Source: Candidatus Eiseniibacteriota bacterium (lineage in GTDB: Bacteria > Orphanbacterota > Orphanbacteria > Orphanbacterales > Orphanbacteraceae). From it: a stretch of DNA of 64,000 nucleotides. Both the position numbers and the translations under genes were made by a program. This document shows, one piece after another, positions 26,311-29,855 of the stretch (position 1 is the stretch's first letter; each line of letters starts with the position of its first letter). The stretch lies in assembly GCA_029262235.1 (NCBI GenBank), contig JAJCZU010000002.1, forward strand, positions 1,142,927 through 1,206,926. Reading direction: 5' to 3'. The notes under the pieces were generated by a model, which did not search any database, was not told the DNA's origin, and saw nothing but the letters and a program-made list of their open reading frames with translations.

Positions 26311-27119
26311 CAGCACAGGACAGACCGATCGTCACGCTCCTGACGGACTTCGGCGAGGGCTCCTATGTCGCGAGCGTCAAGGGCGTGCTTCTCAGCATTA
26401 CGCGCTCGATACAAATCGTCGACATCACACACTCTCTCATGATGGGCGACGTGGGGCCGGCAGGGTACGTGCTCTCGAATACGTCACGCTATTTTCCCCC
26501 GGGCACCATTCATCTCGCTGTGGTTGACCCCGGTGTGGGCATGGATCGCCTGCCCCTGATCCTGCGCGCGGACGGCCATTATTATGTAGGGCCGGACAAC
26601 GGCCTTTTCGGTGAGGTACTCCGCACCGCGGTCGAAGTGAACGCGTTTCATGTCCGCGAGGAGAAGTGGCTGGCGCAGCGCATCAGCCCGACGTTTCACG
26701 GCCGCGACCTGTTTGCGCCGGTTGCGGCGCGGCTGGCGGGCGGCGCGGATCCGGGGGACCTGGGGGACGAAATCGCTCCGGCAGACCTGATCCCGTCCCC
26801 GATTCCGACGCCTGTGCGGACACGTGACGACCTCACGGGCCAGATCGTGTGGGCCGACAGCTTCGGCAATCTCATGACGAATCTCACGGAGAAGATGGTC
26901 GAGGAATGGTGCGGCGAAAATACGTATCAGGTCGTGCTCGGCTGGGAGCGGATTCGAAACCGGATCCGCACGTTCCAGGACACGAGCAAAGGGAGCCTCG
27001 CGTTTCTGTTCGGCAGCTGGAACACACTCGAGGTCGTGGTTTCCGAGGGAAGCGCGGCAACGCGGCTCGGCGTATCGATCGGCGAACCGGTTCGACTGGA
27101 GCGGGTTGTTGCCGGTTGA
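26307..27119 (+). CDS. SAM hydroxide adenosyltransferase / DUF62 (fluorinase-chlorinase fold SAM hydrolase)
   Basis: N-terminal IVTLLTDFGEGSYVASVKGV and YYVGPDNGLFG motifs characteristic of DUF62; ATG at 26307 overlaps the upstream stop. Confidence 0.7.
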   Translation: MTAQDRPIVTLLTDFGEGSYVASVKGVLLSITRSIQIVDITHSLMMGDVGPAGYVLSNTSRYFPPGTIHLAVVDPGVGMDRLPLILRADGHYYVGPDNGLFGEVLRTAVEVNAFHVREEKWLAQRISPTFHGRDLFAPVAARLAGGADPGDLGDEIAPADLIPSPIPTPVRTRDDLTGQIVWADSFGNLMTNLTEKMVEEWCGENTYQVVLGWERIRNRIRTFQDTSKGSLAFLFGSWNTLEVVVSEGSAATRLGVSIGEPVRLERVVAG

Positions 27120-28740
27120 CAACGTGACAATTCGCGTGGAGCCGGTCCCCGCCCTCACGCCGCCGCTCGTACGGCGCTACTGTGCCGGCGATTCCTCACT
27201 GACGCCGCTGTACGCGCACGCCCCGTTCGACGCCTCGCGTCCCCCCGTCTCACCTGCCGGGGGACGCGCTCTCGACGACGACGTCATCCAGCGCATGCTG
27301 AAGCTGAACCGTGAGACCGGCGCCTCCGCCCGCTCACTTGCCAACTGCGAAAAACTGCGCGACCCGGCCGTTCATGCCATGCTCGCGGGACAGCAGCCGG
27401 GACTGCTTCTCGGTCCGCTATTCGCTCTCTATAAGATTGTCACTCTGGTCGCCCGGTGCCGCGCCTGGGAAGCGCAGTCGGGCCAGTCGTACGTGCCCGT
27501 TTTCTGGATCGCGTCGCACGATGCGGACCTCGCGGAAATCGATCACGTCTATCTGCCGGGGCAGGGCGGGGAACCCGAAAAACTCCGCTACCCGTGGACC
27601 GAAGTTCCACGGCAGCAACTGAGCGCCTATGAGATCACCGATTCGGACTGGCGCGCGTTCACTGAAGCCCTGCGTGAACGATTGCCGGATAACGATTTTC
27701 GCGAGGACGCTCTCGCGCGCTTCACGCCATCCCGCTTTCCCGCATCTCCTACGCATGCGTTCGCAGAGGCCGTACATGCTCTGCTGCCGGACGCGGGGAT
27801 CGTATGCTTCGACGGACGCGATGCGGAAACATGCGAGGCGGGGCGTTCGTTTCTCGCACGCACGCTGCGGAACCCGGCGCGCACCCTCGCGTCATGGCGG
27901 GAGGGCGAGGAGACCGTGCGGAACGCGGGGATAGCGCCGCCGCTCGACCTTGCGGAATCGCGATTCCCGCTGTTCCTCGTGGAAAACAGCGTGCGCCATC
28001 CGCTGTCATGGAACGGTTCTCGATTCGAAACGTCGGCCGGGTCTTTCGAACCCGAGACACTGGCGAAGGGCGTGGAGGAGGGAACCCGGACGGTGTCTCC
28101 GAACGCGGGCCTGCGTCCGGTTCTGCAGGACCTGCTGTTCGCGACCGCGGCGACGATCGCCGGTCAGTCCGAACTCGCCTACCATCCGCAACTCGCCTCT
28201 CTCTATGAAAGCGCCGGAGTCGCGCGTCCGCTTCTCGTTCCGCGTGCGAGCCTTTCGCTCGTTCACTTTCGGGCCTACGACCAGCTCGCGGACTTCGGAC
28301 TTACGATCGCGGATCTCAGAGAATCCCCCGACACGGCACAGGAGGGAGCGGCCGGCGACGCACACGCGGCAAGCCGCAGCCGCTTTACGCAGACGATCGA
28401 GGACGCCTGGCGCCGGTTCGCGGAAGAAGTCGCGTCCGCGTCGGACACGAGCCCCGTCCCCGGCGCCGACGACACGGAGTCGCAGTTCCTGAAAGCCGCC
28501 GCGCGATCGGCGGACAAGTTCGTCAAGCAGGCCGACCGCGCCGGGGAAAACAGATCCCGCAAGATTCACAAGCTGACGCAGGAACTCGCACCGAAGGGCA
28601 CGGCGCAGGAATTCGTATGGTCGCTGCTTCCGTTTCTGGCGCGCTACGGACCGGACTTCGCGACCCGCATCGCAGAGGCTTTGCCTGAGGAATCGACCGA
28701 GCATATGATGATGACAGTAGACCCGAGAGGAGCATCATGA
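27106..28740 (+). CDS. bshC: putative bacillithiol biosynthesis cysteine-adding enzyme
   Basis: 544 aa with BshC-like N-terminal blocks (QQPGLLLGPLFALYK...PVFWIASHDAD); adjacent and coupled to bshA; start codon uncertain (TTG 27106 or GTG 27124). Confidence 0.6.
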   Translation: MLPVDNVTIRVEPVPALTPPLVRRYCAGDSSLTPLYAHAPFDASRPPVSPAGGRALDDDVIQRMLKLNRETGASARSLANCEKLRDPAVHAMLAGQQPGLLLGPLFALYKIVTLVARCRAWEAQSGQSYVPVFWIASHDADLAEIDHVYLPGQGGEPEKLRYPWTEVPRQQLSAYEITDSDWRAFTEALRERLPDNDFREDALARFTPSRFPASPTHAFAEAVHALLPDAGIVCFDGRDAETCEAGRSFLARTLRNPARTLASWREGEETVRNAGIAPPLDLAESRFPLFLVENSVRHPLSWNGSRFETSAGSFEPETLAKGVEEGTRTVSPNAGLRPVLQDLLFATAATIAGQSELAYHPQLASLYESAGVARPLLVPRASLSLVHFRAYDQLADFGLTIADLRESPDTAQEGAAGDAHAASRSRFTQTIEDAWRRFAEEVASASDTSPVPGADDTESQFLKAAARSADKFVKQADRAGENRSRKIHKLTQELAPKGTAQEFVWSLLPFLARYGPDFATRIAEALPEESTEHMMMTVDPRGAS

Positions 28741-29855
28741 GAATCGGCATCACATGCTATCCGAGTGCGGGCGGCTCAGGCGTCATCGCGACGGAACTCG
28801 GCCGTTCGCTCGCGGGCCGCGGCCACGACATTCACTTCATCAGCTACTCGCGTCCGTTCCGCCTTCCGGAGGAGGACGACCACATCCGCTTTCACAAAGT
28901 GAAAACGGTCACCTACCCGCTCTTCAAGTATCCGCCGTACTCACTGGCGCTCGCTGTTCGCATGGCCGAGGTGGCGCGCCGGGAAAAGCTCGATCTGTTT
29001 CACGTGCACTACGCGATTCCTCACGCCACGAGTGCGCTCCTGGCCAACATGATTCTCGAGCCGCACCGCGTCGGCGTCGTGACGACACTCCACGGCACGG
29101 ACATCACACTCGTCGGCAGCGACGAAAGCTTCTTCGAAATCACGAAGCTCAGCATCGAGCGCTCCGACGCCGTTACGGCGGTTTCGGATTTCCTTGCACG
29201 GGAGACGCAGCAGAAACTCGCCGTAAAGCACCCGATTGACGTGATTCCGAACTTCGTCGACGCCCACATGTTCGATACGCATGCCAGTCCGGCGATCCGC
29301 GCCGAAATCGGGCTCGAGGACGGACCCGTGCTGATGCACATTTCGAACTTCCGCAAAGTGAAGAACGTGAAAGATGTCATCCAGCTGTTCGCGGCAGTCC
29401 AGGAATCGACGGGAGCGCAGCTGGTACTCGTGGGCGACGGGCCCGAGCGTATCCCCTCGCGTATCCTTGCGGAAGAGCTCGGCGTTCTCGACCGCATTCT
29501 GTTTCTCGGGAATCGCGTGGAAGTGGGGCAGATTCTGCCGCTCGCGGATGTCCTGCTGCTGCCGAGTACGGTGGAAAGCTTCGGCCTCGTCGCTCTCGAA
29601 GCGATGGCGTGCGGAATCCCCGTCGTCGGATACGACGGCGGCGGCCTTCCCGAGGTGGTTCGGCACGGCACAGACGGCATGCTGGCCCCGCTCGGGAGCG
29701 TGGAAAGAATGATTGAAATGACTCTTGAGCTGCTACAGAATCCAGAGAAACGGGAGGCGATGGGCAAGGCCGCGCGGGAACGGGCCGTGCGTGACTTCGC
29801 GACCGCGTCGATCACGGCACAGTATGAAGCCGTTTACGAACGGGTTCTGCGATGA
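28737..29855 (+). CDS. bshA: N-acetyl-alpha-D-glucosaminyl L-malate synthase (GT4)
   Basis: N-terminus MRIGITCYPSAGGSGVIATELG matches the BshA-type GT4 signature; 372 aa. Confidence 0.8.
   Translation: MRIGITCYPSAGGSGVIATELGRSLAGRGHDIHFISYSRPFRLPEEDDHIRFHKVKTVTYPLFKYPPYSLALAVRMAEVARREKLDLFHVHYAIPHATSALLANMILEPHRVGVVTTLHGTDITLVGSDESFFEITKLSIERSDAVTAVSDFLARETQQKLAVKHPIDVIPNFVDAHMFDTHASPAIRAEIGLEDGPVLMHISNFRKVKNVKDVIQLFAAVQESTGAQLVLVGDGPERIPSRILAEELGVLDRILFLGNRVEVGQILPLADVLLLPSTVESFGLVALEAMACGIPVVGYDGGGLPEVVRHGTDGMLAPLGSVERMIEMTLELLQNPEKREAMGKAARERAVRDFATASITAQYEAVYERVLR

What the first reader, a model, noticed from the sequence alone, without database searches (positions are those of the whole stretch)
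27106..29855. Bacillithiol biosynthesis genes bshC-bshA embedded in the LPS operon
A BshA-type GT4 (MRIGITCYPSAGGSGV...) is translationally coupled to an upstream BshC-like protein, suggesting bacillithiol as the low-molecular-weight thiol in this diderm. The pair is co-operonic with lipid A and core genes rather than with redox genes. No bshB deacetylase is seen in the window.
Basis: partly seen in the sequence, partly recalled or inferred. Interest (0 to 1): 0.45.

Follow-up and report, generated by a model that had tools for sequence, protein, structure and literature searches.

The report
Bacillithiol genes bshC-bshA in LPS operon
Two overlapping genes in this uncultivated Gram-negative-type bacterium are genuine bshC and bshA, which make the antioxidant thiol bacillithiol; their place inside a long lipopolysaccharide gene string is a habit of this lineage, and the finding is real but ordinary.

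Summary
Window 27106/27124-28740 (+) encodes BshC: NCBIfam TIGR03998 scores 292 bits against a cutoff of 266, both Pfam BshC domains hit, PDB 4wbd matches at E=1.5e-31, and all 22 family-invariant residues are kept. Window 28737-29855 (+) encodes BshA: TIGR03999 scores 502 bits against a cutoff of 274, and it is about 50% identical along its full length to crystallised BshA. The two genes overlap by ATGA, behind a GAGAGGAG Shine-Dalgarno-like sequence.

They sit in a 21-gene, 21-kb co-directional string running lpxD to DUF3108. No gap exceeds 34 nt. The string also holds unrelated housekeeping genes (nadB, Memo, AMMECR1, a SAM hydrolase).

This order recurs in seven other assemblies, labelled Gemmatimonadetes or Ca. 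Eisenbacteria, even where BshC identity falls to 37-40%. It is absent from 20 BshA loci of other phyla. Some of those loci instead carry compact bshC/bshA/bshB clusters.

No bshB lies in the window or in the relatives' flanks. I could not test the rest of the genome.

Bacillithiol in diderm phyla, Gemmatimonadota included, is already published, and NCBI names a close relative's pair BshC and BshA. The verdict is a new member of a known kind, of low interest.

The parts
27106..28740 (+). bshC, the putative cysteine-adding enzyme of bacillithiol synthesis. Possible starts are TTG 27106/27109 or GTG 27124; the stop is TGA 28738-28740.
   Evidence: TIGR03998 scores 291.8 bits against a cutoff of 265.8, and PF10079 plus PF24850 both hit. 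PDB 4wbd matches at E=1.5e-31. All 22 invariant columns of alignment A1 are kept. dN/dS is 0.16-0.17 against close relatives. The gene caller used 27124, whereas relatives are called with a 5-residue longer N-terminus that aligns to the 27106 version.
28737..29855 (+). bshA, N-acetyl-alpha-D-glucosaminyl L-malate synthase (GT4). Its ATG overlaps the bshC stop as ATGA.
   Evidence: TIGR03999 scores 502.5 bits against a cutoff of 273.7. PDB 2jjm, 3mbo and 5d00 match at E=1e-110 to 1e-105 over the full length. It is 41-55% identical to BshA in loci of other phyla, four of which also carry bshC nearby and three of those bshB. dN/dS is 0.04-0.05.
28719..28740 (+). The bshC/bshA junction: Shine-Dalgarno-like GAGAGGAG followed by the ATGA stop/start overlap.
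   Evidence: Read directly from the sequence.
29852..30229 (+). Minf_1886-family small protein (TIGR04138), coupled to bshA by an ATGA overlap. It is conserved after bshA in this lineage only.
26307..27119 (+). SAM hydroxide adenosyltransferase (DUF62) gene directly upstream of bshC. It ends 4 nt before GTG 27124 and overlaps the TTG 27106 start.
   Evidence: PF01887 and PF20257 hit. The junction was read from the sequence. It holds the same position in all relatives.
23310..26310 (+). nadB (L-aspartate oxidase), Memo (AmmeMemoRadiSam B) and AMMECR1 (AmmeMemoRadiSam A): non-LPS genes between lpxK and the SAM hydrolase.
   Evidence: TIGR00551 scores 563 bits against a cutoff of 453, and NF006567 scores 654 against 629. 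TIGR04336 and TIGR04335 both hit.
14367..23326 (+). Upstream lipid A genes of the string: lpxD, lpxC-fabZ fusion, lpxA, a GnnA-like dehydrogenase, a PEMT/LmtA-like methyltransferase, lpxB, DUF374, kdtA and lpxK.
   Evidence: Pfam and NCBIfam hits. Junction spacing was computed.
30258..35553 (+). Downstream LPS genes of the string: a GT9-like gene, msbA, a GT9 heptosyltransferase-like gene, a gmhB-like HAD phosphatase and DUF3108.
   Evidence: Gaps are at most 34 nt.

Best explanation
The two ORFs are bona fide bshC and bshA. BshA condenses UDP-GlcNAc with L-malate to give GlcNAc-malate. A deacetylase (BshB, encoded elsewhere in the genome) removes the acetyl group. BshC then adds cysteine to give bacillithiol, which serves as the cytoplasmic low-molecular-weight thiol, possibly in N-methylated form if an nmbA gene exists elsewhere. 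In this uncultivated lineage, labelled 'Gemmatimonadetes' or 'Ca. Eisenbacteria' in NCBI, the pair is translated from one long polycistronic message. That message also carries lipid A, Kdo, heptose-core and MsbA genes together with unrelated housekeeping genes. The ATGA overlaps probably couple bshC, bshA and the following small gene translationally. The position in the LPS string most likely reflects the history of a stable housekeeping super-operon in this lineage, not a biochemical role of BshA or BshC in LPS synthesis. What is shown: gene identities, overlaps, synteny and purifying selection. What is inferred: co-transcription, an unlinked bshB, and actual bacillithiol production.
For: Both proteins exceed curated equivalog cutoffs and match solved BshC and BshA structures along their length. 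BshC keeps 22 of 22 invariant residues. Both genes are under purifying selection: dN/dS is 0.16-0.17 for bshC and 0.04-0.05 for bshA, against 0.14-0.21 for lpxK. NCBI's own annotation names the pair in a relative BshC and BshA (NNE10261/NNE10262; BshC 79% and BshA 95% identical to the window's). The 21 genes from 14367 to 35553 have gaps of at most 34 nt and mostly 4-nt overlaps. Terminator-like and promoter-like sites occur at or below chance. The same order recurs in seven other assemblies: L082, L083, L084/85, L086, L087, L095 and L096. The string contains a genuine nadB, so linkage there does not imply an LPS function. bshB is unlinked from bshA and bshC in Chlorobaculum tepidum (CT0548, CT1419, CT1558), and bshC is separate from bshBA in B. 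subtilis (PMC5790435). The complete pathway is reported in 3842 species, including Gemmatimonadota (PMC12719100).
Against: No bshB was found in the 64-kb window, in 4.9 kb beyond its right end, or within about 6-10 kb of bshC in the relatives with long enough contigs. The BshC score exceeds its cutoff by only 26 bits, and BshC is the fastest-evolving protein of the block: 37-40% identity in the relatives where BshA is 68-76%. No bacillithiol-dependent redox genes (bacilliredoxin, Bdr/YpdA, DinB-type transferases) appeared in the Pfam scans of the window. The BshC reaction has never been reconstituted for any organism (PMC5790435). No thiol measurement exists for this lineage.
Confidence: 0.85

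Rival explanations
1. The pair makes bacillithiol, and its conserved place between lpxK and msbA is functional. Lipid A synthesis and bacillithiol synthesis both start from UDP-GlcNAc. One transcript would then balance the two drains on that pool, or tie thiol supply to envelope growth or stress.
For: The arrangement survives divergence down to 37-40% BshC and 44-46% LpxK identity in at least seven other assemblies. LpxA and BshA both use UDP-GlcNAc (established biochemistry; PMC5790435). Junctions are tight throughout the string.
Against: None of 20 BshA-orthologue loci from Acidobacteriota, Ignavibacteriota, Bacteroidota, Planctomycetota or Bacillota has an LPS gene within 10 kb. nadB, Memo, AMMECR1 and a SAM hydrolase are conserved in the string just as well, with no link to UDP-GlcNAc. 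A subclade tolerates an HSP20-Lon insertion right after the bshA-Minf_1886 pair.
Confidence: 0.08
2. The BshA- and BshC-like enzymes act on the envelope rather than making a soluble thiol. They would build a GlcNAc-malate or Cys-GlcN-malate-type decoration on LPS core or lipid A.
For: The genes sit among LPS glycosyltransferase and export genes. No bshB lies nearby. The BshC reaction is biochemically undefined.
Against: BshA scores 502 bits on an equivalog model on which the window's other GT4 scores 95. It is about 50% identical over its full length to enzymes shown to be L-malate glycosyltransferases. GT4 genes that sit in the LPS clusters of Omnitrophota and Planctomycetales loci are only 24-26% identical to it. 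Neither protein matched any membrane or secretion domain in Pfam or NCBIfam; signal peptides and transmembrane segments were not predicted directly. The same orthologues in other phyla sit in bshC/A/B clusters.
Confidence: 0.03
3. The pathway is incomplete in this lineage because there is no BshB. Only GlcNAc-malate is made, or another non-homologous deacetylase substitutes.
For: No PIG-L-family gene was found in the window or in any relative's flanks. A search with a BshB profile for a same-contig hit returned nothing attributable to this genome.
Against: That search was swamped by close relatives of the query sequences and listed only 120 of 7785 hits, so it says nothing about absence. bshB is commonly unlinked in other organisms. 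bshC, which needs the deacetylated product, is under purifying selection.
Confidence: 0.04

Closest known systems
BshA of Bacillus anthracis and B. subtilis (PDB 2jjm, 3mbo, 5d00; NCBIfam TIGR03999)
   Same: It has the GT4 two-domain architecture and the same length, and aligns co-linearly from residue 1 to 372 at E about 1e-110. The motifs GITCYPSxGGSGV, HVHYAIPHA, TTLHGTDIT, HISNFRKVK and ESFGLVxLEAMACGxP are shared.
   Different: It comes from a diderm, high-GC, uncultivated lineage. It is flanked by bshC and a Minf_1886-family gene rather than by mgsA-bshB1 as in Bacillus. Enzyme activity was not tested.
BshC of B. subtilis (PDB 4wbd; NCBIfam TIGR03998; Pfam PF10079 + PF24850)
   Same: It has the Rossmann-like N-terminal domain and the C-terminal coiled-coil domain at a similar length. 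All family-invariant residues are kept: GQQxGxxxGP...K, PxFW..DxDxxE, GxxExxY and PxxxxQE.
   Different: It is only 21-27% identical to most BshC proteins and clears the cutoff narrowly. It evolves faster than its neighbours. In this lineage the motif GP(G/A)E(I/L)AY(W/F) reads GQSELAYH.
Compact bsh clusters of other diderm phyla (Acidobacteria L002 bshC-bshA-bshB; Ca. Hatepunaea L007 and Planctomycetota L018 bshC-bshB-...-bshA)
   Same: bshC lies directly upstream of bshA on the same strand.
   Different: Those clusters include bshB and have no LPS genes within 10 kb. Here bshB is missing and the pair sits inside an lpx/kdtA/msbA string.
Published surveys of bacillithiol distribution (Hiras et al. 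2018, PMC6282198; NmbA study 2025, PMC12719100)
   Same: They predict bacillithiol or N-methyl-bacillithiol in many Gram-negative-type phyla, including Gemmatimonadetes/Gemmatimonadota.
   Different: Hiras et al. used finished genomes. The 2025 study searched RefSeq phylum by phylum across validly published phyla only. Candidate phyla such as Eiseniibacteriota were therefore not covered, and no paper in the library mentions both Eisenbacteria and bacillithiol.

Membership tests
BshA (TIGR03999, N-acetyl-alpha-D-glucosaminyl L-malate synthase) | Score at or above the curated equivalog cutoff, and clearly above paralogous GT4 enzymes | tested here: met
   It scores 502.5 bits against a cutoff of 273.7. 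The next-best GT4 family scores 126 bits. The window's other GT4 (62221-63315) scores 95.5 bits on the same model.
BshA (TIGR03999, N-acetyl-alpha-D-glucosaminyl L-malate synthase) | GT-B/GT4 two-domain architecture, co-linear with structurally and biochemically characterised BshA | tested here: met
   PF13439 and PF00534 both hit. PDB 2jjm, 3mbo, 5d00 and 6n1x match at E=1e-110 to 1e-93, covering residues 1-372.
BshA (TIGR03999, N-acetyl-alpha-D-glucosaminyl L-malate synthase) | L-malate acceptor-site residues defined in the crystal structures | not tested
   The structure papers (PMC5954418, PMC4303302) are not held in the library. Only overall motif conservation was seen.
BshA (TIGR03999, N-acetyl-alpha-D-glucosaminyl L-malate synthase) | Catalytic activity: UDP-GlcNAc + L-malate gives GlcNAc-malate | not testable with these tools
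   This needs an enzyme assay or complementation.
BshC (TIGR03998, bacillithiol cysteine-adding enzyme) | Score at or above the curated equivalog cutoff over the full length | tested here: met
   It scores 291.8 bits against a cutoff of 265.8, covering profile positions 4-528 of 529. The margin is small.
BshC (TIGR03998, bacillithiol cysteine-adding enzyme) | Rossmann-like N-terminal domain plus C-terminal coiled-coil domain | tested here: met
   PF10079 hits at E=1e-58 and PF24850 at E=2e-10. PDB 4wbd aligns over residues 60-517.
BshC (TIGR03998, bacillithiol cysteine-adding enzyme) | Family-invariant residues retained | tested here: met
   All 22 invariant columns of a 15-sequence alignment spanning several phyla are present.
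BshC (TIGR03998, bacillithiol cysteine-adding enzyme) | Co-occurrence or co-localisation with bshA, the criterion by which bshC was first discovered | tested here: met
   The 4-nt ATGA overlap with bshA is conserved in seven relatives.
BshC (TIGR03998, bacillithiol cysteine-adding enzyme) | Cysteine ligation to GlcN-malate | not testable with these tools
   The reaction has not been reconstituted in vitro for any BshC (PMC5790435).
Complete bacillithiol pathway (BshA + BshB + BshC) | A BshB (PIG-L/LmbE-family GlcNAc-malate deacetylase) gene in the locus | tested here: not met
   tblastn and a BshB profile found nothing in the window or in L001, L082-L087 and L093, and tblastn found none in L095 or L096. 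Positive controls scored 347-371 bits.
Complete bacillithiol pathway (BshA + BshB + BshC) | A BshB gene anywhere in the genome | not testable with these tools
   Only 64 kb of a 1.23-Mb contig is available. The database search could not be tied to this genome. Look-ups of proteins at the window edges added only 4.9 kb.
Complete bacillithiol pathway (BshA + BshB + BshC) | Bacillithiol or N-methyl-bacillithiol detectable in cells | not testable with these tools
   This needs thiol profiling of biomass.
LPS biosynthesis pathway (as a functional member) | Linkage to lipid A or core genes that holds across lineages carrying the orthologue | tested here: not met
   None of 20 BshA-orthologue loci from other phyla shows lpx, kdtA, msbA or GT9 genes within 10 kb. 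The linkage is confined to one lineage.

The most novel reading that the evidence does not exclude
In this candidate-phylum lineage the bshC-bshA pair has been held between lpxK and msbA across deep divergence. One reading is that bacillithiol synthesis is functionally tied to outer-membrane biogenesis, through a shared UDP-GlcNAc pool or envelope-linked regulation. Another is that the lineage runs a BshB-independent variant of the pathway, in which a conserved neighbour (Memo, AMMECR1, the DUF62 SAM hydrolase or the Minf_1886 protein) supplies the missing step or the unknown partner of BshC.
Probability: 0.07. Interest if true: 0.5.

Novelty: new member of a known kind. Interest (0 to 1): 0.15.

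Why it matters
It adds a poorly sampled, uncultivated lineage (labelled Ca. Eisenbacteria or 'Gemmatimonadetes') to the long list of Gram-negative-type bacteria predicted to use bacillithiol rather than glutathione. That supports the published view that bacillithiol-type thiols are the most widespread in bacteria. The only unreported aspect is that bshC-bshA is stably embedded in a 21-gene lipid A/core/MsbA string. The BshC reaction is still undefined and may need a partner, so conserved neighbours could in principle be leads. Here, however, the neighbours are specific to this lineage, so they give little leverage. For genome annotation, this is also a clear case where a GT4 inside an LPS cluster should not be called an LPS glycosyltransferase.

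Tried and rejected
The pattern EAMACGIP matches generic GT4 enzymes, so the scan returned no member of the window's own lineage. It was still useful as a panel of about 20 true BshA loci from other phyla plus about 60 unrelated GT4 loci.

2. I searched for this genome's BshB with a five-sequence BshB alignment, hoping to spot a hit on the 1,234,040-bp contig. Of 7785 hits only the top 120 were listed, and all were close relatives of the query sequences. The result is uninformative.

3. Look-ups of proteins at the window edges, meant to read beyond the window, gave a 2.4-kb contig on the left and 4.9 kb more on the right. Neither holds a BshB.

5. I tested whether the FAD protein next to lpxK might act on malate or fumarate for BshA, and rejected it. 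It is a standard NadB by two equivalog models.

6. The BshA and BshC structure papers were not in the library, so crystallographic active-site residues could not be checked one by one.

7. The afdb50 fold library was unavailable.

8. An Rfam scan of the window found nothing. The promoter and terminator scan found nothing above chance.
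Full report
**What is in the sequence.** The window is 58-67% G+C. ORFs at 27106-28740 and 28737-29855 lie on the + strand, as the finding states. The first hits both Pfam BshC domains, PF10079 at E=1e-58 and PF24850 at E=2e-10. It also passes the NCBIfam equivalog TIGR03998 with 291.8 bits against a cutoff of 265.8, over profile positions 4-528 of 529. The second ORF starts MRIGITCYPSAGGSGV and passes TIGR03999 (BshA) with 502.5 bits against a cutoff of 273.7. As an internal control, another GT4 in the window (62221-63315) reaches only 95.5 bits on that model.

The BshA candidate matches the solved BshA structures of B. anthracis (2jjm, 3mbo), B. subtilis (5d00) and other species (6n1x, 6d9t) from its first to its last residue, at E=1e-110 to 1e-93. 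The BshC candidate matches the only solved BshC, 4wbd, at E=1.5e-31. I aligned 15 BshC proteins from several phyla (A1). Twenty-two columns are invariant, and the window protein has every one: GQQxGxxxGP..K, PxFW..DxDxxE, R291, R331, GxxExxY, R374, P490, Q495-E496 and G509.

**Junctions and start codon.** The bshC stop and bshA start overlap as ATGA at 28737-28740, preceded by GAGAGGAG. bshA and the next gene overlap in the same way at 29852-29855. The bshC start is ambiguous. TTG at 27106/27109 overlaps the upstream gene by 11-14 nt. GTG at 27124 lies 4 nt after the upstream stop. The gene caller on record used 27124, giving 538 aa. Relatives are called with five more residues, and these align to the longer version. 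The choice does not affect the conclusion.

**Are the genes alive?** I compared the window with its two closest relatives, L083 and L082. dN/dS is 0.16-0.17 for bshC and 0.04-0.05 for bshA. For comparison it is 0.14-0.21 for lpxK and about 0.05-0.09 for nadB, the SAM hydrolase gene, Memo and msbA. Both genes are therefore under purifying selection. BshC is nevertheless the fastest-evolving protein of the block. Its identity is 69-79% where BshA is 91-95%, and 37-40% where BshA is 68-76%. This fits its narrow margin over the family cutoff.

**Surroundings.** Pfam and NCBIfam scans of the large ORFs give the following order on the + strand:
- bamA, skp, lpxD and an lpxC-fabZ fusion;
- lpxA, a GnnA-like Gfo/Idh/MocA dehydrogenase, a PEMT/LmtA-like membrane methyltransferase, lpxB, DUF374, kdtA and lpxK;
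- nadB, which is genuine (TIGR00551 563 bits against 453; NF006567 654 against 629), Memo, AMMECR1 and a DUF62 SAM hydrolase;
- bshC, bshA and a Minf_1886-family gene (TIGR04138);
- a GT9-like gene, msbA, a GT9 gene, a gmhB-like phosphatase and DUF3108.

From lpxD (14367) to DUF3108 (35553) there are 21 genes. No gap exceeds 34 nt, and most junctions are 1- or 4-nt overlaps. Terminator-like sites are fewer than in shuffled sequence (10 against 17), and promoter-like sites are at chance. One long transcript is therefore plausible, but it is inferred and not shown.

The pair's immediate neighbours, however, are not LPS genes, and the string is a mixed housekeeping super-operon. None of these scans found a redox or bacillithiol-dependent gene, a candidate nmbA-type SAM methyltransferase, or a PIG-L deacetylase in the window.

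**bshB.** I took BshB1 from the mgsA-bshB1-bshA loci of two Bacillota and searched the window by tblastn at E<=10. There was no hit. The same queries found bshB next to bshC or bshA in Acidobacteria (L002), Ca. Hatepunaea (L007) and Planctomycetota (L018). I then built a profile from five BshB sequences (A2) and ran it with all filters off against six-frame fragments. It scored 347-371 bits on those positive controls and nothing above noise in the window or in the relatives' loci.

I could not test whether bshB exists elsewhere in this genome. The window is 64 kb of a 1.23-Mb contig. A database search with the BshB alignment was swamped, and look-ups at the window edges added almost nothing. 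Unlinked bshB is normal. In Chlorobaculum tepidum the three genes are CT0548, CT1419 and CT1558 (PMC6282198). In B. subtilis bshC is separate from bshB1-bshA (PMC5790435).

**Relatives.** Homology searches found a small, deep clade. Neighbourhood look-ups then showed the same gene order from lpxA (where the contig is long enough) through nadB-Memo-AMMECR1-SAM hydrolase-bshC-bshA-Minf_1886 to msbA and DUF3108. The assemblies are:
- L082 (SRR27456852);
- L083 (GCA_013002425.1, labelled 'Gemmatimonadetes bacterium');
- L084/L085 (ENA);
- L086 (GCA_043809585.1, labelled 'Candidatus Eisenbacteria bacterium');
- L087 (GCA_024276995.1);
- L095, a JGI metagenome contig, and L096, a shorter one that breaks off inside bshC.

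In the more distant subclade an HSP20-Lon pair is inserted right after the Minf_1886 gene. NCBI already names the proteins of L083 BshC and BshA (NNE10261 and NNE10262).

Outside the clade the picture differs. About 20 true BshA orthologues (41-55% identical) from Acidobacteriota, Ignavibacteriota, Bacteroidota, Planctomycetota, Bacillota and other phyla have no lpx, kdtA, msbA or GT9 gene within 10 kb. The GT4 genes that do sit in the LPS clusters of Omnitrophota and Planctomycetales loci are only 24-26% identical to the window's BshA. The LPS linkage is therefore a trait of this one lineage. nadB shares the same conservation, so the linkage gives no specific evidence for an LPS function.

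**Comparison with what is known.** The literature held here already covers the main point.
- Bacillithiol or N-methyl-bacillithiol has been shown chemically in Chlorobiaceae, a Bacteroidetes member and Thermus. It is predicted from genes in Acidobacteria, Chlamydiae, Gemmatimonadetes and Proteobacteria (PMC6282198).
- A 2025 survey counts 3842 species with the complete pathway. Of these, 2111 are Bacteroidota, and Gemmatimonadota are among the phyla listed (PMC12719100).
- That survey covered validly published phyla only. No paper in the library mentions both Eisenbacteria and bacillithiol. This lineage is at most a new host.
- The BshC reaction itself has not been reconstituted and may need an unknown partner (PMC5790435).

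**Verdict.** The most likely account (confidence 0.85) is ordinary bacillithiol biosynthesis by bshA, bshC and an unlinked bshB, expressed from a lineage-specific housekeeping super-operon. The rivals are a functional coupling to envelope synthesis through UDP-GlcNAc (0.08), an envelope decoration (0.03), and an incomplete or variant pathway (0.04). None is excluded, and none has positive support beyond synteny. The finding is a new member of a known kind, and I score its interest at 0.15.

Noticed in passing
[not shown]
   Followed up: yes
window 24923-27119 (+): Memo (AmmeMemoRadiSam protein B) and AMMECR1 (protein A) are adjacent, but no radical-SAM partner was seen next to them. The next gene is instead a DUF62 SAM hydroxide adenosyltransferase. 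This trio is conserved upstream of bshC in all clade members.
   Followed up: partly
window 17587-19193 (+): Between lpxA and lpxB lie two genes: a Gfo/Idh/MocA dehydrogenase resembling UDP-GlcNAc 3-dehydrogenase (202 bits, below its cutoff) and a PEMT-family membrane methyltransferase weakly similar to Leptospira LmtA. Together they hint at a GlcN3N-type and/or phosphate-methylated lipid A.
   Followed up: partly
window 15440-16762 (+): LpxC and FabZ are encoded as one 440-aa fusion protein.
   Followed up: no
window 7052-11272 (+): McsA-like (UVR motif), McsB-like (ATP:guanido phosphotransferase) and ClpC-like genes sit directly upstream of bamA. This protein-arginine-kinase module is best known from Gram-positive bacteria.
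   Followed up: no
window 37394-42759 (-): A full-length MetH (1157 aa) is followed by a 629-aa protein that fuses a homocysteine S-methyltransferase domain to an MTHFR domain. The pair is wedged between rfbA/rfbB-like and rfbC-like genes.
   Followed up: no
window 45127-46554, 47309-48598, 51984-54452, 55944-58451 (+): Four large ORFs (429-835 aa) in the exopolysaccharide cluster have coding-type codon bias but no Pfam hit at E<=1e-5.
   Followed up: no
L084 13180-15896; L086 13150-15890; L087 6378-9007; also L095: In the more distant subclade an HSP20-Lon protease pair is inserted between the Minf_1886 gene and the GT9-like gene. This is the only break seen in the otherwise fixed gene order.
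   Followed up: partly
window 27124-28737 compared with L082-L087 and L095: BshC is the fastest-evolving protein of the 20-gene block: 37-40% identity where its neighbours are 44-76%. Its dN/dS of about 0.17 still indicates constraint.
   Followed up: yes
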